DNA of 64,000 bases, taken from positions 3,499 to 67,498 of the forward strand of contig CAYRCL010000034.1 in the NCBI GenBank assembly GCA_964422795.1, given 5' to 3'. Shown here in pieces: positions 34,396 to 45,293 of the stretch. The notes below the pieces were generated by a model that did not search any database, was not told the origin of the DNA, and saw nothing but the letters and a program-made list of their open reading frames with translations. Numbering within the stretch: the stretch's first letter is position 1; the number at the start of each line of letters is the position of its first letter. Source of the stretch: an uncultured Chloroflexota bacterium. GTDB taxonomy: Bacteria > Chloroflexota > UBA11872. Position numbers and translations under genes: made by a program.

Positions 34396-36312
34396 CTATT
34401 TCTCGTCTGCCGCCTCAAATTCAGCATCTACTACATCATCATCCTGATCTGATGGAGACACCGACTCACTTCCTTCAACAGCATCTGACCCTTCGGGGCC
34501 AGCATCTGGTTCGTGGTACATCTGTTCACCCAGCTTCTGCGAAGCCGTCTCTAACACAGCCATCGCACTCTTCAATTCCTCTAAGTCAGAACCCTCTAAT
34601 GCCTTGCGAACATCTGCGATTGCCGTCTCCGCAGCCTGCTTGTCATCAGCATCAACCTTGTCCTCATTTTCGTTAATCAGTCGCTCCGTCTGGTAGGCAA
34701 GACTGTCAGCGTTGTTCCGAAGTTCCGCTTCCTCAAGTTGACGCTTGTCATCCGAGGCATGCTGTTCGGCTTCCGACACCAAAGCCTCGACCTGGTCCGA
34801 CGTTAGATTGGTCGTTGCAGTTATCGTGATGCGCTGCTCCTTGCCCGTAGCAAGATCCTTTGCAGACACAGCCACGATTCCATTTGCATCAATATCGAAC
34901 GTTACTTCGATCTGCGGAACTCCACGTGGAGCCGCCGGAATCCCTTCGAGGCGAAATCTTCCAAGTGTCGTGTTGTCGCGCGCCATCGGTCTTTCACCCT
35001 GAAGCACATGAATGTCAACGGCCGTTTGCCCGTCCTCAGCAGTAGAAAAATTCTCCGACTTGCCTGTCGGGATTGTCGTGTTTCGTGGGATCAGTGCTGT
35101 CATAACCCCACCCAAGGTTTCAACGCCCAGCGACAAAGGTGTCACGTCTAGAAGAACAACATCTTCAACCTCTCCTGCCAACACACCTCCTTGAATCGCA
35201 GCACCAATCGCCACAACCTCGTCGGGGTTTACACCTTGGCTAGGGTCGTTACCTGTTAACTCGCGAACCAATGCCTGAACCGCCGGCATGCGAGTAGATC
35301 CGCCCACTAGCACAACAGCATTAATCGCGGAAGCCTCGATTCCGGCGTCCGTAAGCGCCTGTTTAAATGGAGCAACACACCGCTGCGTAAGGTCCTGAGT
35401 AAGATTTTCGAATTCGGCACGAGTAATCGTGACGTCCAGATGCTTGGGACCTGTTTGGTCAGCAGTAATGAAAGGCAAACTAATCTGAGCCTGAGGAACA
35501 GACGACAGCTCTTGTTTAGCTTTTTCAGATGCCTCGATGAGACGTTGAAGCGCTTGTGGATCCTGTCTTAGATCAATACCCTCGCTCGTCCGAAACTCCT
35601 CAGCAACGTGATCCACAACACGTCGATCGTAGTCGTCACCCCCGAGATGGGTGTCACCGTTCGTTGCCTTAACTTCAAATACGCCATCACCGACTTCCAA
35701 GACCGTGACATCAAATGTTCCCCCGCCAAGATCCCAGACAAGAATCGTCTCAGCCCCCTTCTGTTCAAGCCCATAGGCAAGGGCAGCTGCCGTTGGTTCA
35801 TTGATAATTCGACGCACGTTGAGACCCGCAACCTCACCTGCATTGCGTGTAGCTTGCCGTTGCGCATCATTGAAGTAGGCAGGAACAGTAATCACAGCAT
35901 CCGTAACAGTCTCACCAAGATATTTCTCGGCATCGGCTTTTAATTTCTGGAGAACAACCGCCGAGATTTCTTCGGGAGCCACCTCTCGTCCAGTCTCAGG
36001 GATCTTGATTCGTGCCTCCCCAGCCTTACCTTCAACCACATCAAATGTGACCGACCCCGCCTCTTCGCCAACTTCATCGAGACGGCGCCCAATAAATCGT
36101 TTTGCGGAATAGATCGTATTCTTTGGATTCATGACCGCCTGCCGCCGAGCGAGCTGCCCAACCAGACGTTGTCCCCCATTCGCAAACGCCACCACAGACG
36201 GCGTGAGACGACTACCCTCGGAATTGGTGACCACCGTCGGATCTCCACCTTCCATCACAGCAACCACCGAGTTCGTGGTCCCGAGGTCTATCCCTATGAT
36301 CTTGCTCGCCAT
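34396..36312 (-). CDS. dnaK: Chaperone DnaK (Hsp70)
   Basis: [27 protein letters not shown] and [10 protein letters not shown]; AGGAG RBS. Confidence 0.98.
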
Positions 36313-36322
36313 CAATTAACTC

Positions 36323-38773
36323 CTATGTTGTTTTGAGAACGGACACCGAACCACTCGTAGTCGGCACCGATATATCACTCATCAATACTGTTGAGATGAC
36401 CTTGTCCATATCACTGACCCAAACAAAACGCATCTGTTTGCGGACCTTTTTGGGGATATCTTCAAGATCTGCCTGATTCTCCGCCGGAGCAACCACCGTG
36501 TGCACCCCAGCACGATGTGCAGCCAGCACCTTTTCTTTGAGACCTCCGATCGGCAACACACGACCTCGCAACGTCACCTCTCCTGTCATCGCGATCTCTC
36601 GTCGCACCTCCCGTCCCGTCACTGCTGAAATGATCGCCGCCCCTATGGTTATTCCAGCCGACGGACCGTCCTTCGGGACTCCACCGACGGGAACATGGAC
36701 ATGGAGATCCCTCTGGGAAAAAAGAGCCGGATCTATTCCCAGGTCATTTGTTCTTGATCTTGCGTATGACAAAGCAGCACGAGCCGATTCACTCATAACC
36801 TCTCCGAGTTGCCCGGTTAAACGAAGCTTCCCACCACCAACAACCCAAGCCGCTTCGACGTCGAGAATCTCACCTCCTACCGGTGTTACTGCTAAACCAG
36901 TCGCCACACCGACTTCTGGATCTCTGGAATCGTACTCAGGAAGAAATTTAGCAGGGCCACGAGCCGCTCGAACCCGGCGGGGCGTCACTCGCTGTGCTGC
37001 ATGTCCATACACAGCAATACGCCGAGCAATCTTGCGACAAACACCCGCCAGCTCACGCTCGAGATTTCTTACTCCAGCCTCTCGCGTGTAGTGTCGGATG
37101 GCTTCGCGAATCGCCCCGTCAGTGAAAGTAATCCCAGAACTCCGCAGTCCATGCTGACGGATTTGCCGAGGCAGGAGAAATCCTTGCGCAATCTGCACCT
37201 TTTCATCCTCCGTATAGCCGCTAAGCTCAATCACCTCCATCCGATCACGCAAAACCTCAGGAATATCCTCAACGGTGTTCGCAGTCGTGATAAAGAGAAC
37301 GCGCGACAGATCAAAATTCACTTCGAGGTAATGGTCCGAAAAGCTTCGGTTATGTTCAGGGTCCAGAACCTCTAATAAAGCGGACGACGGATCACCACGA
37401 AAGTCACGCCCTATCTTGTCAATTTCATCAAGCAGCATCACTGGATTCAGTGATCCGGCACGTCTCATAGCCTGGATGATTCGACCAGGCAAAGCCCCGA
37501 CATACGTACGGCGATGGCCACGAATCTCTGCTTCATCACGGACTCCTCCGAGCGAAATCCGAACAAATTTTCGACTCAGTGCCCGTGCAACTGAGCGACC
37601 AAGACTGGTTTTACCAACACCAGGGGGGCCAACGAGGCAAAGAATTGGAGTGCGAAAGCTAGTAGAAATCGACCGGACCGCCAAAAACTCGAGCACTCGC
37701 TCTTTGACCTTCTCAAGACCATAGTGATCACGGTCAAGGACAAGGCGAGCACGTGACAGATCGGGAGCATCATTAGTCTCTACAGCCCAGGGCAAGCTGA
37801 GCAACCAATCCAGATAGCCTCTAATAACCCCCACTTCGGGAGAAGTCGGTGGCGTAGCCTCAAGTCGCGCTACTTCCTGCCTAGCCTTGGCTTCAACCTC
37901 CTTGGGGAAATCCACATCCTCAATCCGAACGATCAACTCATCAATATCGTCAATCTGCGGGTTCGAGACCCCAAGCTCACGTTGTATGGCTTTGAGTTGT
38001 TCCCGAAGATAGAAATCACGCTGAACCTTTTCAATCCCGTCTTGAATTTCACCCTGGATTTTGTTGCGTATGTTGAGAATCTCCACCTGTTTCGTGAGAT
38101 AAGTCGCGACATGCCGTAAGCGCTCGGCCGGATCAAGCGTTTCAAGAACAGACTGGCGCTCGTGTGGCGACATGTCCGAAGAGAACGTGATGTAATCAGC
38201 AATCCAGCTTGGATCGGCTGTTCGACGAGCCATAGAAACCATCTCAGGAGCAAAAACGTTCGTATCGTCAGCAACAGCCTCGACCTGAGCTACAACCACA
38301 CGACGCAACACTTCAAGTTCAAGTTCGTCAGCTTTCTCGTTAACCAGTGGTGTAACCCGAGCCTGAAGATAATCATCCACCGACTGAACATCTTCCACGT
38401 CCGCCCGATACTGCCCCTCCATGAGAACCTGTACACCACCATCAGGCATACGTAGACGGCGAATGATTTTGGCAACTGTTCCAACATCAAAAAGATGTTC
38501 AGAATCAACCTTTTTACGCGCACGACGCTGCGTCACCAGCACAACCACGTCGTCGGTATCCGCAGCTGCCGAAATGGCATCGACTGACACGGGACGACTC
38601 ACATGCAAAGGCATCGTCAGTTCAGGGAATGCCACCCAATCAGGTAATGGAACAAGTGGCAATAGCTGCGACTCGGGTTTTACTGACGCAACCGTTCGAC
38701 GCGCACCAGAGACTTCGCTTTCAGTTTTATCTGAACGAACAGATCCAGCGTCGCCATTGCCTTGATTAGTCAT
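36323..38773 (-). CDS. lon: ATP-dependent Lon protease (LonA)
   Basis: Lon N-domain, GPPGVGKTS, RRTYVGALPG, catalytic PKDGPSAG and GGLKEK. Confidence 0.97.
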   Translation of the reverse strand: MTNQGNGDAGSVRSDKTESEVSGARRTVASVKPESQLLPLVPLPDWVAFPELTMPLHVSRPVSVDAISAAADTDDVVVLVTQRRARKKVDSEHLFDVGTVAKIIRRLRMPDGGVQVLMEGQYRADVEDVQSVDDYLQARVTPLVNEKADELELEVLRRVVVAQVEAVADDTNVFAPEMVSMARRTADPSWIADYITFSSDMSPHERQSVLETLDPAERLRHVATYLTKQVEILNIRNKIQGEIQDGIEKVQRDFYLREQLKAIQRELGVSNPQIDDIDELIVRIEDVDFPKEVEAKARQEVARLEATPPTSPEVGVIRGYLDWLLSLPWAVETNDAPDLSRARLVLDRDHYGLEKVKERVLEFLAVRSISTSFRTPILCLVGPPGVGKTSLGRSVARALSRKFVRISLGGVRDEAEIRGHRRTYVGALPGRIIQAMRRAGSLNPVMLLDEIDKIGRDFRGDPSSALLEVLDPEHNRSFSDHYLEVNFDLSRVLFITTANTVEDIPEVLRDRMEVIELSGYTEDEKVQIAQGFLLPRQIRQHGLRSSGITFTDGAIREAIRHYTREAGVRNLERELAGVCRKIARRIAVYGHAAQRVTPRRVRAARGPAKFLPEYDSRDPEVGVATGLAVTPVGGEILDVEAAWVVGGGKLRLTGQLGEVMSESARAALSYARSRTNDLGIDPALFSQRDLHVHVPVGGVPKDGPSAGITIGAAIISAVTGREVRREIAMTGEVTLRGRVLPIGGLKEKVLAAHRAGVHTVVAPAENQADLEDIPKKVRKQMRFVWVSDMDKVISTVLMSDISVPTTSGSVSVLKTT

Positions 38774-38779
38774 AAGACT

Positions 38780-38810
38780 AAGTTACATAGTTGAGCCCCT
38801 CACTGTCAAG
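38780..38810 (-). promoter_or_regulatory. Sigma70-type promoter overlapped by a HAIR-like HspR operator; apparently leaderless
   Basis: Minus strand CTTGACA-GTGAGGG-GCTCAAC against the HAIR consensus CTTGAGT-N7-ACTCAAG. TTGACA is followed 18 bp later by TAACTT, which lies 6 nt before the lon ATG. No SD. Confidence 0.7.
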
Positions 38811-39041
38811 TTATCTTACATATACGGGGTCACAACTGGGGCTTTGACTACTTTGAATAGCCGAGGGCCTATACAGCTCTATTCCATCAATAATCACCAG
38901 CCTTCACACAACTCTCGATATTTTCCATTGAACTGGCGACTCACATCAATCCATACAAAAAGCGTAGTGTTTCAAACGAGGTGGGCAGCCTTTCGCGCTG
39001 AGCTTCGCACCGATGATACGGCTGTGTACCTAAACAGCTTG

Positions 39042-39070
39042 TTGACGCACAGCACAGGCTCCCGCACACT
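39042..39070 (+). promoter_or_regulatory. Putative sigma70 promoter of the aro operon
   Basis: TTGACG (39042-47), a 17 bp spacer, then CACACT (39065-70). Confidence 0.55.
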
Positions 39071-39099
39071 CGACCTAACGTTGGTATTAGGACGAACGT

Positions 39100-39180
39100 G
39101 TGAATCGCGATCAGCCAATAAACAGCAACAGCTATTTCGACTTTGCAAAGCCGGCGCTGCCGGACCACCTCCTCATGTGA
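39100..39180 (+). CDS. Putative aro operon leader peptide (26 aa, MNRDQPINSNSYFDFAKPALPDHLLM)
   Basis: GTG start 7 nt after AGGA; clustered TAT-TTC-GAC-TTT (Tyr-Phe-Asp-Phe); stop about 23 nt before an intrinsic terminator. Confidence 0.6.
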   Translation: MNRDQPINSNSYFDFAKPALPDHLLM

Positions 39181-39202
39181 GGACGTGCGAGCAGACGCCG
39201 GC

Positions 39203-39230
39203 AGCAGAGGCCACGGCCTCTGCTTTTTTT
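39203..39230 (+). terminator. Intrinsic terminator (attenuator) in the aroF leader
   Basis: AGCAGAGGC-CACG-GCCTCTGCT stem-loop followed by a T7 run, 58 nt before the aroF start. Confidence 0.85.
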
Positions 39231-39288
39231 GTTTACAGAGCAATTCCAGACAATAGGGCCTAAGGCCACCGAGAATGAGGAAACTCCA

Positions 39289-40320
39289 ATGATCATCGTT
39301 ATGCAGGACGCAGTCACGACCGAACAAATCGCTGCCATCGAGAAGCGGGTCCGAGCCGAAGGCTTGGAGACACGTGTCCTACAGGGTGTGGAAAAGACAG
39401 TGATAGCCCTCATCGGCAAGAGACCGCCCGAGCTCGCGGAACAGATTGAGCGTATGCCTGGTGTGTTTTCAGCAATGCCGATCGGCGAGCCCTTCAAACT
39501 TGCTGCCCGCAGCGAGGCTACGGAAAGTTCAAGCGTGAAGATCGGTGATATCGCAATTGGAAATGGAAAGACGACCGTAATTGGTGGACCCTGCACCGTC
39601 GAAACACGAGAACAACTAATCACCACAGCTGAACATGTCGCAACAGCCGGCGCACAACTCTTACGAGGAGGGGCGTTTAAACCAAGAAGCTCCCCTTACA
39701 GCTTTCAGGGTCTTGGAGTTGATGGACTTAAGCTTCTCGTTGACGCTCGAGAAGCAACAGGCCTTCCCATAGTCACGGAAGTTCTCGACCCCCGACATGT
39801 CGAAGTTGTAACAAACCACGCGGATATGTTGCAGATAGGCACTCGAAACGCTCAGAACTACGTGCTTCTTCGGGAAGTAGGTGCATGCGGAAAACCCGTA
39901 ATGCTCAAGCGTGGGATGGGAAACACCATCGATGAGTGGCTTATGTGCGCCGAATACGTCATGGCTTCTGGAAATCCCGACGTCGTCTTATGCGAACGTG
40001 GCATCCGAACTTTCGAAACATCGTCCCGGTTCACGTTGGACCTGAACGCGATCCCCTTGCTCCGCCGACGAACCCATCTGCCGATCGTCGTAGACCCGTC
40101 GCAAGGCACCGGTCATTGGTTCATGGTCGAAGCTCTATCATTAGCCGCTATCGCGGCTGGCGCTGACGGAATCATTGTCGAAGTCCACCCAACCCCTGAC
40201 GTTGCCTTAATTGATGGCCAACAAAGCCTCAGCCTTGAAAATTTTACAGTTCTAATGGAAAAGCTGAACCCGATGGCAGCCGCATTGGGCCGTCCAACAA
40301 ACGACCCTATCCAGAAATAG
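39289..40320 (+). CDS. aroF: DAHP synthase, type I-beta with an N-terminal ACT-like regulatory domain
   Basis: MIIVM N-domain, IGGPCTVE, RGGAFKPRSSPYSFQGLG, LKRG, LCERGIRTFE and EVHP; start reassigned using the GAGGA RBS. Confidence 0.96.
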   Translation: MIIVMQDAVTTEQIAAIEKRVRAEGLETRVLQGVEKTVIALIGKRPPELAEQIERMPGVFSAMPIGEPFKLAARSEATESSSVKIGDIAIGNGKTTVIGGPCTVETREQLITTAEHVATAGAQLLRGGAFKPRSSPYSFQGLGVDGLKLLVDAREATGLPIVTEVLDPRHVEVVTNHADMLQIGTRNAQNYVLLREVGACGKPVMLKRGMGNTIDEWLMCAEYVMASGNPDVVLCERGIRTFETSSRFTLDLNAIPLLRRRTHLPIVVDPSQGTGHWFMVEALSLAAIAAGADGIIVEVHPTPDVALIDGQQSLSLENFTVLMEKLNPMAAALGRPTNDPIQK

Positions 40321-40322
40321 TA

Positions 40323-41627
40323 ATGGCCCCAAAGTCCACGGTATCGACAACCCGAATCGTAACCCCGGCTGCCCGCCTGCGTGGTGAAATCCAAGTTCCG
40401 GGCGATAAATCAATTACCCATCGAGGACTGCTACTTGGATCGATTGGGAATGGACGTTCGATAATTCGAGGCTGCAGCTTCGGTGCTGACACGCAAGCAA
40501 CCGTTGACGTTCTACGCGCTCTAGGCACCGACATCGAACATTCCAACGGCAATTGCCTGGTAACAGGTCAAGGCCTCTACGGACTCACTGAACCCACAAA
40601 CGTCTTAGATTGCGGAAACAGCGGGACAACGATGCGTTTAACCGCAGGCTTGCTCGCCGGCCGTCCACTTTTCGCGGTACTGACGGGCGACACATCGCTA
40701 CGTTCGCGTCCTATGGAGCGCATCATCAATCCACTCCGGGTTCTCGGCGCACGCATTGAAGGCCGTGCATCGGGAACTCTCGCACCTCTAACCATCAGCA
40801 CCAGCAAGCTGCGCGGGGCCGAACTCGATATCACCGTTGCCAGCGCTCAGGTTAAGTCGGCAATTACTCTCGCAGCGTTGCGAGCCGAAGGAACCACGCT
40901 GATCCGGCAACCTGCTCCATCACGCGACCACACTGAACGGATGCTCCTCGCTCAAGGGGCAAATCTTGCGAGCCTGGGTAATTGCCTCCAAATACATCCG
41001 TCCGAAAAACTCGGGCCACTGGATCTTGAAGTTCCAGGGGATATGTCATCTGCGGCATTTTGGATAGTTGCCGCACTACTCCATCCGGATGCCGAAGTTG
41101 CGATCCACAACGTAGGCCTAAACCGGTCTCGAACCGGACTACTTGAAATACTCCAAGCTATGGGAGGCGACATAGAGATCAGTGAGAGCACTGCAGGACC
41201 AGAGCCGATAGGAACGATTATCGCCAAATCATCAATCCTTACCCCCACCACTGTGCGTGGTGAGATGATCCCTCGTCTAATTGATGAGATCCCATTGCTT
41301 ACACTTGCCGCTGCCAGCGCATCTGGAGCATCACGGATTTCCGATGCTCAGGAACTGAGCCATAAGGAGTCTGATCGGCTCAAGACAACTGCCAACGCAC
41401 TAGCATCTGTTGGATTAAGCATTGAACTGATGCCAGATGGATTTACGATTGCAGGTCCACAACGTGCAGGGAGAGGGGAAATCGACCCCGAAGGGGACCA
41501 CCGAATTGCGATGCTAGCCGCAATCATTGGCATTACAGGAACCGGCCCCGTAACCATCGCCGGAAGTGATTCCGTGAACGTTTCGTATCCCATGTTCTGG
41601 GATGACGTAGCGAGACTCACCGTATGA
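40323..41627 (+). CDS. aroA: EPSP synthase
   Basis: PGDKSITHR, DCGNSGTTMR, SAQVKSA, RDHTERML, KESDR and DHRIAM. Confidence 0.97.
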   Translation: MAPKSTVSTTRIVTPAARLRGEIQVPGDKSITHRGLLLGSIGNGRSIIRGCSFGADTQATVDVLRALGTDIEHSNGNCLVTGQGLYGLTEPTNVLDCGNSGTTMRLTAGLLAGRPLFAVLTGDTSLRSRPMERIINPLRVLGARIEGRASGTLAPLTISTSKLRGAELDITVASAQVKSAITLAALRAEGTTLIRQPAPSRDHTERMLLAQGANLASLGNCLQIHPSEKLGPLDLEVPGDMSSAAFWIVAALLHPDAEVAIHNVGLNRSRTGLLEILQAMGGDIEISESTAGPEPIGTIIAKSSILTPTTVRGEMIPRLIDEIPLLTLAAASASGASRISDAQELSHKESDRLKTTANALASVGLSIELMPDGFTIAGPQRAGRGEIDPEGDHRIAMLAAIIGITGTGPVTIAGSDSVNVSYPMFWDDVARLTV

Positions 41628-42496
41628 GCAGGACTTATGCTGTGATCGGATGGCCGCTGGGTCACAGCCTCTCACCAATCATTCAACAGGCTGCGCTTAG
41701 CTCCATGAACCTAGATGCCAAATACATAGCACTCCCGACTCCACCAGGAGAAGAATCCGCTCGCTTTGACGATCTCCGGCAAGGGAAGCTCGACGGACTG
41801 AATATTACGATCCCGCATAAGCAAACTGCTTTCAATGTCGTAGATGCACACACTTCAGAAGCTGCAGTGCTTGGTGCTGTCAATACCATCGTCCGTGACG
41901 GACCCTACCTACGGGGCCACAACACGGATCTTTACGGATTCGACCAGGCACTGCGAACCTTCGGATCCTTTGACCCAACTGGCGTACAGGCAGTTGTACT
42001 TGGGGCCGGCGGATCCGCCCGTGCAATCGTATACGCCCTCGGGTTAGCCAACGCTCGGTCGATCGTTCTTGCCAATCGCACATCGGTCAACGCGCATGCT
42101 CTTGTTACCGCGATGGCGACGGCCATGGACATGAGCATCGAGGTACGCGCACTCGATGACCAACAACTACAAGAGGACATTGCAGCTTCCACACTATTGG
42201 TCAACACTACCAGTGTTGGAATGGCTGGCGGACCTGCCCCTGACCAATCACCTGTTCCGAAAAATTGGTTGCACGACCAACTATTGGTTTTCGATATCGT
42301 GTATCGACCGGTATTAACCCCGCTGGTTTCTCATGCTCAAGCGGCAGGCTCCCGTACGCTCGGCGGACTTGAGATGCTTGTGCTCCAAGGTGCTGCCAGT
42401 TTTAGGCAGTGGACCAAGCAAGAACCGCCGGTGGACCTAATGCTCAAAGTTGGCAGAAGAGCTCTGGCCAACGATTTACACAATGGAGCGAACTAA
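41624..42496 (+). CDS. aroE: Shikimate dehydrogenase
   Basis: HSLSP, NITIPHK, GAVNT, NTD, LGAGGSAR, DIVY and GLEMLVLQG. Confidence 0.96.
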   Translation: MSRTYAVIGWPLGHSLSPIIQQAALSSMNLDAKYIALPTPPGEESARFDDLRQGKLDGLNITIPHKQTAFNVVDAHTSEAAVLGAVNTIVRDGPYLRGHNTDLYGFDQALRTFGSFDPTGVQAVVLGAGGSARAIVYALGLANARSIVLANRTSVNAHALVTAMATAMDMSIEVRALDDQQLQEDIAASTLLVNTTSVGMAGGPAPDQSPVPKNWLHDQLLVFDIVYRPVLTPLVSHAQAAGSRTLGGLEMLVLQGAASFRQWTKQEPPVDLMLKVGRRALANDLHNGAN

Positions 42497-42499
42497 CCG

Positions 42500-43684
42500 A
42501 TGGGACACCTCCGCTACCTGACTGCTGGCGAATCGCATGGACCCGGATTGACCGTAATTGTGGAGGGTCTTCCGTTTGGAGTACCCCTTGAAGCTCACGA
42601 CATCAATCCCGACCTGTCGCGTCGCCAAGGTGGTTACGGCCGCGGCGGCCGCATGAAAATAGAACGTGACGTGGCAGAGATCAGAAGCGGCGTACGCCAC
42701 GGAGTAACCATTGGTAGCCCGATCACCCTATTGATCGAGAATCGTGACTGGGCAAACTGGGGCGAGAAGATGTCCATCGAACCAATCGAAGCTGAAATCC
42801 CACCAGTCACCAAACCTCGACCGGGTCATGCAGATCTCGCCGGCATGATCAAATACGGAACAAATGATTTACGGAATATTCTCGAACGCTCCAGCGCCCG
42901 CGAAACGACGGCACGGGTAGCTGCAGGAGCGATTGCTCGTAAGTTCCTGTCGGAATTAGACATTCAGATCCGTAGCCGGACTGCACGGATCGGATCGGTG
43001 CCTGACGAACCAGAGTTGGACCCATCCGAGCCATCAACCTGGCCCTGGGATGCTGTGGAAGCATCCCCGGTGCGCGCTATCACGCCGGACCAAGGAGAGG
43101 CAATGGTCGAAGAGATCGACAAAGCCCGTAAAAACGGCACCACACTCGGAGGCATATTTGAGGTTGTCGCTTGGAACATTCCGGTGGGATTAGGAAGTCA
43201 CGTGCACTGGGATCGAAAACTCGACGCAAAGTTGACCCAAGCCATCGTCAGCATTAACGCGGTCAAGGGTGTCGAGATAGGTCCAGCCTTTGCAAACGCT
43301 GCTGCGGACGGTCATGACGTCCACGACGAGATCACTATCGATTCCGAACGCGGTTGGACACGTCTCAACAACAAGGCAGGTGGACTTGAAGGTGGTATGA
43401 CGAACGGACAACCCGTGGTGGTAAGGGGGGCGCTCAAACCTATCTCCACGATGCGTCGCCGGCTAAGAACAGTGGACGTGGTAACCCTCGAGGCAACAAC
43501 CGCCCACTTTGAACGATCGGATGTTTGCGTTGTTCCATCCGCAGGCGTCATCGGGGAGGCCATGGTAGCGCTAGTCCTAGCTGATGCAGTGCTCGATAAA
43601 TTTGGAGGAGACAGCCTTACGGAAACGCAGGCGAGTGTGACACGTTTTCGACAAACCAATTCCGTGTCTCGACCGGATTCATGA
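42500..43684 (+). CDS. aroC: Chorismate synthase
   Basis: TAGESHG, RRQGGYGRGGRM, RPGHAD, ERSSARET and GGLEGGMTNG. Confidence 0.98.
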   Translation: MGHLRYLTAGESHGPGLTVIVEGLPFGVPLEAHDINPDLSRRQGGYGRGGRMKIERDVAEIRSGVRHGVTIGSPITLLIENRDWANWGEKMSIEPIEAEIPPVTKPRPGHADLAGMIKYGTNDLRNILERSSARETTARVAAGAIARKFLSELDIQIRSRTARIGSVPDEPELDPSEPSTWPWDAVEASPVRAITPDQGEAMVEEIDKARKNGTTLGGIFEVVAWNIPVGLGSHVHWDRKLDAKLTQAIVSINAVKGVEIGPAFANAAADGHDVHDEITIDSERGWTRLNNKAGGLEGGMTNGQPVVVRGALKPISTMRRRLRTVDVVTLEATTAHFERSDVCVVPSAGVIGEAMVALVLADAVLDKFGGDSLTETQASVTRFRQTNSVSRPDS

Positions 43685-44229
43685 CAGGGCCTATCGATGT
43701 GGAACGCATCTTCCTTGTCGGCCTCAGCGGAGCTGGTAAATCGATCACAGCAGAGCGAGCAGCCAAATTTCTGGGATGGCTATCAACCGATAGCGACTCC
43801 GAAATCATTCTTCGGGAAGGGCGATCCATCGAATCCATATTTAACGATGATGGCGAAGACGTTTTTCGCCAGACAGAACGTCAAGTCATCCAAGAAATGA
43901 GTGAACGACCATTCCAAGTCGTTGCCCTCGGTGGCGGAGCCTTTGTTGACCCAACCACCCGGAACAGCCTGCTAAAAATCGGCCTTGTGGTGTGGCTCGA
44001 TGTCGACCCTCTTGAAGCTGCACGACGGCTAGAAAACTCCCTGACGACCGAGCCGAGGCCACTTTTGGGGAATAACCCGGCAAAAAGACTTCAGGCCCTC
44101 CAGAAGCTTCGCATGCCTTCCTACAAACACGCGCATTGTCGAATTGATACAAATGGGTTAACCACCGACGAAGTAGCAAACGCGGTTGTTACTGCGGCGA
44201 AAGCTACGCAGACCACCGCGCACATCTGA
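43681..44229 (+). CDS. aroK: Shikimate kinase
   Basis: GLSGAGKS P-loop, GEDVFRQTE, LGGG and RPLL. Confidence 0.94.
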   Translation: MTGPIDVERIFLVGLSGAGKSITAERAAKFLGWLSTDSDSEIILREGRSIESIFNDDGEDVFRQTERQVIQEMSERPFQVVALGGGAFVDPTTRNSLLKIGLVVWLDVDPLEAARRLENSLTTEPRPLLGNNPAKRLQALQKLRMPSYKHAHCRIDTNGLTTDEVANAVVTAAKATQTTAHI

Positions 44230-45293
44230 TGCACGCGCTCGACGGCGTCATTATCGGACCAGGAACACTCAAAACCTTAGGTCCAGTTGTTACAGAGATC
44301 GCCCCTACTAACCGGGTATTTCTCTGCGCCGACAAAACCGTGATGACTCTTCTGGGCAGCCGAATTACAGACATTCTTGAGTCGGCCGGGCTTGAAGTTT
44401 GCAGTCGTAGTTTTGCTGCGGGTGAGAAAAGCAAGTCATTGGAGAGTGCATCTGACCTTTTCAACTGGCTCGCTTATCAAGAAGCAGAACGCCGTGAACC
44501 GCTAATTGCCCTCGGAGGAGGGGTTACAGGCGACCTCGTCGGCTTCGTGGCCGCAACATACAGCCGTGGCATTCCCTTAGTCCAGATTCCAACAACCCTT
44601 CTCGCTCAAATCGATAGCAGTATTGGTGGAAAGGTGGCCATTGATCTGGTAGCCGGGAAAAACCTCGTAGGTGCGTTTTATCCCGCAACCCGAGTTATCG
44701 TCGATCCGGAGGTTCTCGTATCACTCGACCGCCCACAGCTAATTGCCGACTACGCTGAGGTGGTTAAAACCGCCGTACTCTTCGATGCTGATATGTTCGC
44801 GCTTATTGAAAACTCGAAGAGCAGCCTCGACGACCAAGAGCTACTTGCGAACCTCATAGATCGGTGCATTCGGTGGAAAGCCAAGATCGTGGACCAAGAT
44901 CCGTCGGATCGTGGTCTTCGGGCAATACTCAATTACGGCCATACGATCGCGCACGCGATCGAGACCACCAGCGGATACGGAAAATATCGCCATGGCGAAG
45001 CCGTCGCTATGGGCATGGTAGGAGCCGGACAACTAGCGGTGCACACGGGCCGTTGGACCAAATCGGACGCTGATCGCCAAGAACAGCTCCTCCGCGACAT
45101 CGGATTGCCCGTACGCTTTCATGGCTCTACCGTAGACGAACTTTTGGACGCGATTCAACGAGACAAGAAGGTTCAGTCCGGACGGGTCCGTTGGGTCCTC
45201 CCTGATGCAATCGGAAGAGCTTCAATTGACGTCGACGTTGACGATCGGCTTGTCAAAAGCGTTCTCGTCGACCTGATGGAAGATTCGACGTAA
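44229..45293 (+). CDS. aroB: 3-dehydroquinate synthase
   Basis: GGGVTGD, PTTLLAQIDSSIGGK, KNLVGAF, LNYGHTIAHAIE and HGEAV. Confidence 0.97.
   Translation: MHALDGVIIGPGTLKTLGPVVTEIAPTNRVFLCADKTVMTLLGSRITDILESAGLEVCSRSFAAGEKSKSLESASDLFNWLAYQEAERREPLIALGGGVTGDLVGFVAATYSRGIPLVQIPTTLLAQIDSSIGGKVAIDLVAGKNLVGAFYPATRVIVDPEVLVSLDRPQLIADYAEVVKTAVLFDADMFALIENSKSSLDDQELLANLIDRCIRWKAKIVDQDPSDRGLRAILNYGHTIAHAIETTSGYGKYRHGEAVAMGMVGAGQLAVHTGRWTKSDADRQEQLLRDIGLPVRFHGSTVDELLDAIQRDKKVQSGRVRWVLPDAIGRASIDVDVDDRLVKSVLVDLMEDST

What the first reader, a model, noticed from the sequence alone, without database searches (positions are those of the whole stretch)
39042..39240. Unannotated Tyr/Phe leader-peptide transcription attenuator ahead of the shikimate operon
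Seen: a promoter-like TTGACG-N17-CACACT, then AGGA and a GTG-initiated 26-codon ORF (39100-39180) whose only aromatic codons cluster as Tyr-Phe-Asp-Phe (39133-39144). A GC-rich terminator with T7 (39203-39230) sits before aroF. Two mutually exclusive pairings are possible. GCCGGCGCUGC (39150-60) with GCAGACGCCGGC (39191-202) leaves the terminator intact. GCUGCCGG (39156-63) with CCGGCAGC (39198-205) invades the terminator base. Established: this is the logic of trpL/pheL-type attenuation, and type I-beta DAHP synthases with an N-terminal ACT domain are inhibited by Tyr/Phe, which fits a leader with no Trp codon. Inference: a ribosome stalled on the Y/F codons would mask the first arm and favour the antiterminator. 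I know of no described attenuator for a whole common-pathway aro operon in Chloroflexota. The antiterminator overlaps only about 3 nt of the terminator stem, so the switch is not certain.
Basis: partly seen in the sequence, partly recalled or inferred. Interest (0 to 1): 0.78.

Follow-up and report, generated by a model that had tools for sequence, protein, structure and literature searches.

The report
Aromatic leader-peptide attenuator before aroF
A short upstream reading frame with tyrosine and phenylalanine codons, a long hairpin and a transcription terminator sit in front of the shikimate-pathway operon of this marine Chloroflexota bacterium; it is very probably an amino-acid-supply switch of a known general kind, but its family is built without the usual competing antiterminator hairpin.

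Summary
Comparison shows it is far more than chance. The same leader precedes aroF in 29 of 29 related loci that have upstream DNA. It consists of a promoter, a uORF of about 26 codons with Y-F-x-F, a long hairpin (P1) that holds the stop codon, and an intrinsic terminator.

A covariance model finds it in 17 of 151 sampled Chloroflexota genomes. It also finds it in 38 of 101 genomes of an actinomycete order, there ahead of a DAHP-synthase-like/chorismate-mutase gene. Rfam has no match. My literature searches found only analogues: C. glutamicum aroR, the Acholeplasma uORFC-13-1 motif and E. coli pheL.

The general interpretation, a ribosome-read Phe/Tyr attenuator, is well supported. The specific antiterminator is real in this genome: with a ribosome on the last Phe codon it is isoenergetic with the terminator. 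It is not conserved, holding in 1 of 69 family members.

Three features are conserved. The last aromatic codon lies about 5 nt before P1. P1 directly abuts the terminator. The terminator core is CAGAG:CUCUG. How read-through is achieved is unresolved.

Earlier reports of this scan found the same kind of leader in other Chloroflexota genomes, several also noting the missing antiterminator.

The parts
39042..39070 (+). Promoter: -35 TTGACG (39042-47), 17-nt spacer, -10 CACACT (39065-70)
   Evidence: Read. The blocks ATTGACGC and CGCACACTC are conserved across the genus. The sister family has TTGAC(G/C)-N17-TATATT or TATAGT at the same place. The consensus scan did not call it.
39089..39092 (+). 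Shine-Dalgarno-like AGGA, 7 nt before the GTG
   Evidence: Read. Function is inferred.
39100..39180 (+). Leader ORF: 26 codons plus TGA, MNRDQPINSNSYFDFAKPALPDHLLM
   Evidence: 28 of 29 related loci with upstream DNA hold the TAT-TT(C/T)-NNN-TT(T/C) frame with an in-frame stop. 22 of those 28 have a start codon that gives 26-27 codons.
39133..39144 (+). Regulatory codons TAT TTC GAC TTT (Tyr-Phe-Asp-Phe). The last one, TTT at 39142-44, is the codon placed about 5 nt before P1 throughout the family
   Evidence: spacer of 5 nt in 69 of 72.
39150..39202 (+). P1: a long imperfect hairpin (-33.3 kcal/mol) whose upper part holds the leader's stop codon (39178-80)
   Evidence: Across 72 aligned leaders all 16 modelled P1 pairs show compensatory changes. 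92% of cells are paired, against 30-46% when partners are slid. The stop codon lies inside P1 in 72 of 72.
39156..39163 (+). It pairs with 39198-39205
   Evidence: It is competitive only in this genome (1 of 69).
39198..39205 (+). 3' strand of that antiterminator (CCGGCAGC). 39203-05 are the bottom three 5'-arm bases of the terminator
39203..39231 (+). Intrinsic terminator: stem 39203-11 with 39216-24, loop CACG, and a T7 run at 39224-30 whose first T closes the stem. Core CAGAG (39205-09) pairs with CUCUG (39218-22)
   Evidence: -16.7 kcal/mol. It has a single copy in the genome. The core shows no compensatory change in 72 aligned leaders.
39289..40320 (+). aroF: DAHP synthase with an N-terminal ferredoxin-like domain, the first gene of the controlled operon
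   Evidence: Pfam DAHP_synth_1 at 1.1e-74 and DAHP_snth_FXD at 5e-17.
40323..45293 (+). aroA (40323-41627), aroE (41624-42496), aroC (42500-43684), aroK (43681-44229), aroB (44229-45293), tightly packed or overlapping
   Evidence: Pfam matches. ORF coordinates.

Best explanation
This is a ribosome-read (leader-peptide) transcription attenuator of the shikimate operon. It senses charged Phe-tRNA and Tyr-tRNA.

Proposed sequence of events:
1. Transcription starts a few bases after CACACT.
2. A ribosome translates the 26-codon leader.
3. When supply is good, the ribosome runs into P1, unwinds it and stops at the UGA in its upper part, 25 nt before the terminator. The terminator forms and most transcripts end at the T7 run.
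4. When Phe or Tyr is short, the ribosome waits on Tyr12, Phe13 or Phe15, above all on the UUU at 39142-44, which sits 5 nt before P1. More polymerases then read through into aroF.

The waiting ribosome covers 39150-55. The freed strand 39198-202 re-pairs with 39159-63 in a shifted register. The helix extends over 39203-05 and takes the bottom three pairs of the terminator.

Shown: the anatomy, its conservation, the pairing of P1, and the energetics. Inferred: translation of the leader, stalling, and the direction of the response.

Because the shifted helix is not conserved, the family probably relies on some other consequence of P1 staying folded next to a stalled ribosome.
For: - Operon content and the divergent lon gene upstream. 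The terminator therefore ends no upstream gene.
- The leader precedes aroF in 29 of 29 related loci with upstream DNA. 28 were found by pattern and L024 by the model. aroF itself is only 51-54% identical in the sister family.
- Signs of coding. The in-frame stop is always inside P1, using UAG 32, UGA 30 and UAA 10 times in 72 leaders. The N-terminal residues diverge while length is kept. Distant leaders keep aromatic clusters through different codons and a quite different P1, for example WYYDF, FSFYYWF, YFSF, FYF, YYWFY and YYYLF.
- P1 covaries.
- In the window, masking up to 39155 makes the antiterminator state isoenergetic with the terminator state: -35.7 against -35.9 kcal/mol, a cost of 0.2 kcal/mol.
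- The same leader family sits ahead of another aromatic-pathway gene in Actinomycetota.
- Precedent: the aroR leader (Phe-Tyr-Phe) raises aroF-operon transcription under Phe limitation in C. glutamicum (passages of PMC11802643).
Against: - There is no expression evidence. The one RNA run holds only two 151-nt contigs, both inside aroF.
- The terminator stays in the minimum-energy fold of the full leader in 69 of 72 family members under every ribosome position tried.
- The shifted helix overlaps only 3 terminator bases and is at best isoenergetic.
- It lowers the cost of opening the terminator base to 1 kcal/mol or less in 1 of 69 members. It lowers it to 4.4-5.5 in about a dozen genus and family members. 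Elsewhere it has no effect.
- The best upstream partner of the terminator's 5' arm lies at no fixed place in 25 leaders.
- Some actinomycete leaders keep only one Phe codon, for example CSVF and CHAF.
- The -10 hexamer is poor.
Confidence: 0.7

Rival explanations
1. The sensor is the same, but there is no RNA antiterminator. P1 acts as a loop-out ruler. A ribosome stalled with UUU in its A site abuts the base of an intact P1. P1 and the terminator share a junction, so the base of the terminator then lies beside the ribosome's mRNA entrance. RNA polymerase cannot enclose the bottom terminator pairs, and it reads through. A ribosome that is not stalled unwinds P1 and ends 25-52 nt upstream of the terminator core, so nothing hinders termination.
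For: - Fixed geometry across two phyla. There are 5 nt between UUU and the first modelled pair of P1 in 69 of 72 leaders, and the stop codon is inside P1 in 72 of 72.
- There are 0 unpaired nt between P1 and the terminator stem in 56 of 69 leaders, and 3 or fewer in 69 of 69.
- The same layout holds in 14 leaders taken without regard to their sequence. The linker is 0-2 nt in 12 of them and the stop is inside P1 in 13.
- P1 keeps its pairs but not its sequence.
- No conserved antiterminator was found.
- The placement of a stalled ribosome's leading edge about 11-13 nt past the first P-site base is recalled knowledge, not a tool result.
Against: - This is pure inference from geometry. No structure or experiment supports it, and I know of no precedent.
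- Tandem hairpins next to terminators work normally in other leaders (recalled).
- It does not explain the conserved terminator core.
- One unbiased leader (L140) has a 5-nt linker.
Confidence: 0.2
2. Reverse logic. In ribosome-free RNA the pyrimidine-rich Tyr/Phe codons pair with the purine-rich 5' arm of the terminator across the base of P1. Untranslated leaders would then read through, and any ribosome on the leader would cause termination.
For: - In RNA truncated before the 3' arm and free of ribosomes, 3 or more of the 5 core bases are paired in 39 of 72 leaders. The figure is 0 of 72 when the flank is masked up to UUU+8.
- The commonest partner is the UUU codon itself.
- In the window, CUUUGC pairs with GCAGAG.
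Against: - In most members the helix is only UUU:AGA, three weak pairs, worth 1-3 kcal/mol.
- Starvation would then lower expression of a biosynthetic operon.
- The full-length fold keeps the terminator in 69 of 72.
Confidence: 0.05
3. A protein- or ligand-binding RNA switch. A factor recognises the conserved terminator core CAGAG:CUCUG, or the P1-terminator junction, and the short ORF is secondary.
For: - The core shows no compensatory change in 72 leaders, while the pairs around it and all pairs of P1 covary.
- The core recurs in 7 of 17 terminators ahead of aroF in an unbiased sample of distant Chloroflexota.
- It has a single copy in the genome.
Against: - The 72 leaders were found with a pattern or model that contains the core, so that count is biased.
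- The unbiased sample also holds CGGAG:CUCCG (2 cases) and other stems.
- Loop length and sequence vary.
- No Rfam family matches.
- The aromatic codons and the position of the stop codon are conserved in a codon-wise manner.
Confidence: 0.07
4. Not a regulator. This would be an independent small gene or small RNA with its own terminator, and aroF would be transcribed from its own promoter.
For: The promoter, ORF and terminator form a self-contained unit. No expression data are available.
Against: - Only 58 nt, including the ribosome-binding site, separate the T run from the aroF ATG, and no promoter-like site was called there. That stretch is not conserved.
- The unit is linked to aromatic-pathway genes in two phyla.
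- The peptide is conserved only in its aromatic codons and in the part that overlaps P1.
Confidence: 0.03

Closest known systems
aroR leader peptide upstream of the aroF operon, Corynebacterium glutamicum (Neshat et al. 2014; seen only as cited in passages of PMC11802643 and PMC4046766)
   Same: A short leader ORF with a Phe/Tyr cluster (Phe-Tyr-Phe) lies ahead of a DAHP synthase operon. Transcription rises under Phe limitation through ribosome stalling.
   Different: - I did not see the aroR sequence or its RNA structures, so homology is untested.
- The enzyme type may differ.
- The present family has the fixed layout UUU, 5 nt, P1, 0-3 nt, terminator, and no conserved antiterminator.
pheL-pheA and trpL attenuators of Enterobacteria (Rfam Phe_leader and Trp_leader; accession and family names recalled)
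   Same: A leader ORF with cognate codons, a hairpin that includes the end of the ORF, and an intrinsic terminator before the first biosynthetic gene.
   Different: - The classical leaders have a strong 2:3 antiterminator that shares a whole arm with the terminator, and their regulatory codons lie inside segment 1 (recalled).
- Here the codons lie 5 nt outside P1, P1 shares no base with the terminator, and the only overlap is 3 nt in this genome.
- No Rfam match at E up to 10.
uORFC-13-1 motif upstream of aroF in Acholeplasma (passages of PMC8632094)
   Same: A uORF with Phe (U-run) codons lies immediately upstream of an intrinsic terminator ahead of aroF. There is a further conserved base-paired element. 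The authors proposed it to be a Phe-sensing attenuator.
   Different: - It occurs in a different phylum and in AT-rich genomes.
- Its consensus was not available to me for comparison.
- No Rfam family matched the window.
pyrBI leader of E. coli (recalled)
   Same: Attenuation without an antiterminator hairpin. The ribosome itself hinders the terminator.
   Different: In pyrBI the leader ORF runs through the terminator and the signal is polymerase pausing at low UTP. Here the ORF ends 25 nt before the terminator.

Membership tests
Classical leader-peptide (ribosome-mediated) transcription attenuators | A short translated ORF with a ribosome-binding site upstream of an amino-acid biosynthesis operon | tested here: met
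   GTG at 39100 with AGGA 7 nt upstream. The ORF is conserved in 28 of 29 loci, with the stop codon varying in kind but not in place. Translation itself was not observed.
Classical leader-peptide (ribosome-mediated) transcription attenuators | A cluster of codons for the end-product amino acid or acids | tested here: met
   Tyr-Phe-x-Phe at codons 12-15. Clusters of 3-5 aromatic codons occur in distant leaders. The cluster is weaker in some Actinomycetota, which keep one Phe.
Classical leader-peptide (ribosome-mediated) transcription attenuators | An intrinsic terminator between the leader ORF and the first structural gene | tested here: met
Classical leader-peptide (ribosome-mediated) transcription attenuators | An antiterminator that excludes the terminator and is favoured when a ribosome stalls on the regulatory codons | tested here: inconclusive
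   In the window there is an 8-bp shifted helix that overlaps 3 terminator bases and is isoenergetic with the terminator. In the family the feature is not met: 1 of 69, 14 of 72 against 19 of 72 for the stop-codon control, and no fixed partner.
Classical leader-peptide (ribosome-mediated) transcription attenuators | Read-through rises when the cognate charged tRNA is scarce | not testable with these tools
   The only RNA run does not cover the leader.
Rfam leader families (Phe_leader, Trp_leader and others) and T-box | A match to the curated covariance model | tested here: not met
   cmscan of 38600-39450 at E up to 10 gave only two chance snoRNA hits. There were no gathering-score hits in three actinomycete loci.
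aroR-type leader of C. glutamicum | Sequence or structure homology to aroR | not tested
   I held no aroR sequence. The primary paper is not in the library, and its supplements, if any, could not be seen.

The most novel reading that the evidence does not exclude
This is a widespread attenuator design of Chloroflexota and Actinomycetota that works without an antiterminator hairpin. A covarying hairpin of 50-70 nt loops out the RNA between the stall codon and the terminator. Only a ribosome stalled on the last aromatic codon (UUU) then sits directly against the terminator's base and sterically keeps RNA polymerase from closing it. A moving ribosome unwinds the hairpin and so removes itself from the terminator. 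The conserved CAGAG:CUCUG core would be a further specific contact, as yet unknown.
Probability: 0.2. Interest if true: 0.8.

Novelty: new variant of a known kind. Interest (0 to 1): 0.5.

Why it matters
Leader-peptide attenuation is a textbook mechanism, and aromatic examples are known (pheL, trpL, aroR). A further example is in itself ordinary.

Three things stand out here:
- One leader family, absent from Rfam and from the papers I could search, controls the entry into aromatic amino-acid synthesis. It occurs in uncultured marine and other Chloroflexota and in cultured Actinomycetota.
- The family keeps exact spacings between the stall codon, a covarying hairpin and the terminator, yet keeps no antiterminator.
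- The terminator stem has a conserved core sequence.

If the geometry rather than alternative pairing carries the signal, this would be a new way for a ribosome to control termination. It could be tested in cultured hosts such as Microbispora or Sphaerisporangium, or in a purified coupled system.

For annotation, the covariance model built here marks a regulatory unit ahead of aro genes in genomes where nothing is currently annotated.

Tried and rejected
1. Known RNA families and T-box: no match.

2. A conserved antiterminator.
- Constraint folding with ribosome masks was run on 24 leaders, 15 leaders and 72 leaders.
- A duplex search for partners of the terminator's 5' arm was run on 25 leaders.
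- The cost of opening the terminator base was computed.
- None of these gave a family-wide antiterminator.

3. Frameshift at the hungry UUU carrying the ribosome across the terminator. The +1 frame is open across the terminator in 43 of 64 leaders and the -1 frame in 26 of 64. Both are closed in most Actinomycetota. Rejected.

4. Re-initiation at a start codon overlapping the stop (AUG-UAG, GUGA). The downstream frame is not kept open. Rejected.

5. A helix between the Tyr/Phe codons and the terminator's 5' arm. It is weak and gives the wrong logic.

6. The terminator core as the complement of 16S rRNA. Only the first 900 nt or so of the 16S are assembled. They hold one GCAGAGG (same sense as the 5' arm) and no CCUCUGC in the rRNA sense. 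No case can be made.

7. Mimicry of tRNA. The anticodon stems of this genome's tRNA-Tyr (CCAGA/UCUGG) and tRNA-Phe do not match the core beyond four bases.

8. Expression evidence. One metatranscriptome run holds two 151-nt contigs inside aroF and nothing over the leader. It shows no start, no end and no read-through.

9. The long frames over the leader (38844-39263 on + and 38941-39327 on -) have no Pfam match and are taken as chance.

10. A class-wide search around the actinomycete genome failed on the machine side. I ran an order-wide search instead.

11. The first alignment (A1) misaligned the terminators of the sister family, so its RNAalifold structure lacked the terminator. I rebuilt the alignment from genus sequences.

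Full report
**What is there.** The stretch 38774-39288 lies between a divergent lon gene (36323-38773, minus strand) and aroF (39289-40320). aroF is followed, tightly packed, by aroA, aroE, aroC, aroK and aroB. aroF encodes a DAHP synthase of Pfam family DAHP_synth_1 with the N-terminal ferredoxin-like domain DAHP_snth_FXD.

- TTGACG-N17-CACACT at 39042-70.
- AGGA at 39089-92.
- A GTG-initiated 26-codon frame at 39100-39180 whose only aromatic codons are TAT-TTC-GAC-TTT (39133-44).
- A 9-pair terminator stem at 39203-24 with a T7 run.

The minimum-energy fold puts a 53-nt hairpin, P1 (39150-39202, -33.3 kcal/mol), directly against the terminator (-16.7 kcal/mol). The leader folds better than all 200 shuffles, z = -4.9. 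No Rfam family matches, T-box included.

**More than chance.** A protein search found aroF in 37 of 41 related genomes, and 30 loci were fetched. One of them (L016) has no upstream DNA.
- All other 29 loci carry the same leader. 28 were found by pattern and L024 by the covariance model.
- This holds although aroF is only 51-54% identical in the sister family.
- The -35 and -10 blocks are conserved. The sister family has TATATT or TATAGT where the genus has CACACT.
- 28 of 29 loci have TAT-TT(C/T)-NNN-TT(T/C) in an open frame. The 29th (L002, the closest relative) has CAT in place of TAT.
- 22 of the 28 have a start codon that gives 26-27 codons.
- One locus pair (L019 and L042) has a terminator 3' arm with two mismatches.

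**Breadth.** A DNA pattern scan of one genome per species gave 44 loci.
- 35 are records titled Chloroflexota or Chloroflexi bacterium.
- 3 are Actinomycetota that carry the full element: Microbispora corallina, Sphaerisporangium flaviroseum and a Jiangellaceae MAG.
- 6 are chance hits that the model does not match, the best at 12 bits.

In the three actinomycetes the downstream gene is a DAHP_synth_1-like domain fused to chorismate mutase CM_2.

A covariance model built from 17 genus sequences matched widely:
- 17 of 151 genomes sampled across the phylum. All sampled members of the window's order matched, plus 6 distant genomes. The tally includes one unpublished genome, G076.
- 38 of 101 genomes of the order around the Microbispora genome. 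This tally includes the unpublished G194.

To escape the bias of searching with the element itself, I fetched 40 aroF upstream regions from distant Chloroflexota, chosen by the protein match alone.
- 17 have a terminator-like hairpin.
- The 14 I inspected all show an aromatic-rich short frame, a 50-72-nt hairpin and the terminator.

The window's DNA occurs in marine metagenomes: 19 DNA runs hold half or more of its sampled words. In three DNA runs that I laid on it, no difference is listed between 38965 and 39313, while aroF shows several in one of them. That is a weak hint only.

**Signs of translation.** In 72 model-aligned leaders the in-frame stop always lies inside P1. It is UAG 32 times, UGA 30 times and UAA 10 times. 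N-terminal residues differ freely while length is kept. Distant leaders keep aromatic clusters through different codons and with an unrelated P1 sequence. Examples are MMALSRWYYDF....FSFYYWFSPPA..RYFSFPSPA..VFYFRCPA..RYYWFYRGIT and ..NYYYLFTKPEGPA. This codon-wise conservation is hard to reconcile with a purely RNA-level element.

**Structure.** All 16 modelled pairs of P1 show compensatory changes. 92.2% of cells are paired, against 30-46% when partners are slid, and 0 of 500 shuffles reach the observed values. That alignment was fitted to the model, which favours the structure.

The five central terminator pairs, CAGAG with CUCUG, show no compensatory change in the 72. The only changes are A to G, giving G.U. 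The 72 were found with tools that contain that core, so the figure overstates. In the unbiased sample, 7 of 17 terminators have this core, 2 have CGGAG:CUCCG, and others differ. The hairpin has a single copy in the genome. I found no partner or reason for this preference.

**The switch.**
- With bases up to 39155 masked, as for a ribosome with UUU in the A site (the footprint size is recalled), the fold with 39156-63 paired to 39198-205 and a 6-pair terminator remnant has -35.7 kcal/mol. The fold with the full terminator has -35.9 kcal/mol.
- The cost of losing the bottom three terminator pairs drops from 7.4 to 0.2 kcal/mol.

Across the family this is the exception.
- The cost is 1 kcal/mol or less in 1 of 69 leaders. 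It is 4.4-5.5 in about a dozen genus and family members and unchanged elsewhere.
- The base opposite A39203 is U only in the window and its nearest relative. Elsewhere in the genus the pair is A.A, G.A or G.G.
- The terminator stays in the full-length minimum-energy fold in 69 of 72 leaders under all masks.
- In RNA cut before the 3' arm, the core is paired in 14 of 72 leaders with the UUU mask, against 19 of 72 with the stop-codon mask.
- The best partner of the 5' arm sits at no fixed place.

**What is conserved instead.**
- The last aromatic codon, UUU, lies 5 nt before the first modelled pair of P1 in 69 of 72 leaders.
- P1 and the terminator stem are separated by 0 nt in 56 of 69 minimum-energy folds, and by 3 nt or fewer in all 69.
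- The unbiased leaders show the same layout: a linker of 0-2 nt in 12 of 14, and the stop inside P1 in 13 of 14.

Unlike trpL or pheL (recalled), the regulatory codons lie outside the hairpin. A ribosome waiting on UUU would leave P1 largely intact and abut its base. A ribosome that moves on must unwind P1 and ends 25-52 nt upstream of the terminator core.

From this I infer, without any test, that an intact P1 beside a stalled ribosome somehow hinders completion of the adjoining terminator. Steric exclusion between ribosome and polymerase at the shared junction is the reading I find most consistent. It is listed as the novel case.

Three alternatives were tried and rejected: frameshifting at UUU, re-initiation, and a helix between the codons and the terminator arm.

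**Comparison with what is known.** Passages of PMC11802643 and PMC4046766 describe the C. glutamicum aroR leader (Phe-Tyr-Phe) ahead of aroF, with transcription enhanced under Phe limitation. I did not see the primary paper (Neshat et al. 2014). Passages of PMC8632094 describe the uORFC-13-1 motif ahead of aroF in Acholeplasma.

Five full-text searches gave no description of such a leader in Chloroflexota or in Actinomycetota other than Corynebacterium. Supplements could not be read and may hold more.

Earlier reports of this scan describe aromatic leader-peptide attenuators ahead of aro operons in other Chloroflexota genomes: 24 findings hold all the search words, and 8 were shown. Several of those shown also say that the textbook antiterminator is missing. 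None overlaps this DNA.

**Verdict.** The general interpretation is supported by comparison but not by expression data. The specific antiterminator is plausible for this species only. The element is a new variant of a known kind. Its open question is how read-through is achieved and why the terminator core is kept.

Noticed in passing
window 39205-39209 with 39218-39222: The five central terminator pairs, CAGAG:CUCUG, are kept without compensatory change in 72 aligned leaders of two phyla. They recur in 7 of 17 terminators ahead of aroF in an unbiased sample. No partner or binding factor was identified.
   Followed up: partly
L033:2293-3231 (-), L035:5330-6334 (-), L066:5585-6592 (+): In Actinomycetota the same leader precedes a protein of 312-335 aa. 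It has a partial, weak DAHP_synth_1 match (21-58 bits) and a C-terminal chorismate mutase CM_2 domain. The enzyme type behind the leader differs between the phyla.
   Followed up: partly
L019:1154-1264 (-) and L042: One genus member has a terminator 3' arm reading CCACCGC instead of CCTCTGC, which gives two mismatches. It is either a natural weakened terminator or an assembly error in a fragmented MAG.
   Followed up: no
L025 and L038, between terminator and aroF: A run of about nine GTCA repeats (CAGTCAGTCAGT...) lies in the spacer between the terminator and the aroF start.
   Followed up: no
window 38844-39263 (+) and 38941-39327 (-): Two long open frames (139 and 128 aa) run over the leader. 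Neither has a Pfam match, and the + frame is not kept open in relatives. Both are probably chance.
   Followed up: partly
window 34396-38773 (-): dnaK (Hsp70) and lon lie head to tail on the minus strand, and lon diverges from the aro leader. The roughly 270 nt between lon and the aro promoter (38774-39041) were not examined for a lon promoter or a heat-shock operator.
   Followed up: no
G000 contig C1:62880-63779: The only 16S rRNA match in the assembly is cut at a contig end (model positions 9-902). The anti-Shine-Dalgarno end could therefore not be read.
   Followed up: no
G001, G005, G018, G023 (same genus): Four of the 23 other genus genomes gave no aroF match with this protein query. Their completeness is 76-93%, so absence is not shown.
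   Followed up: no
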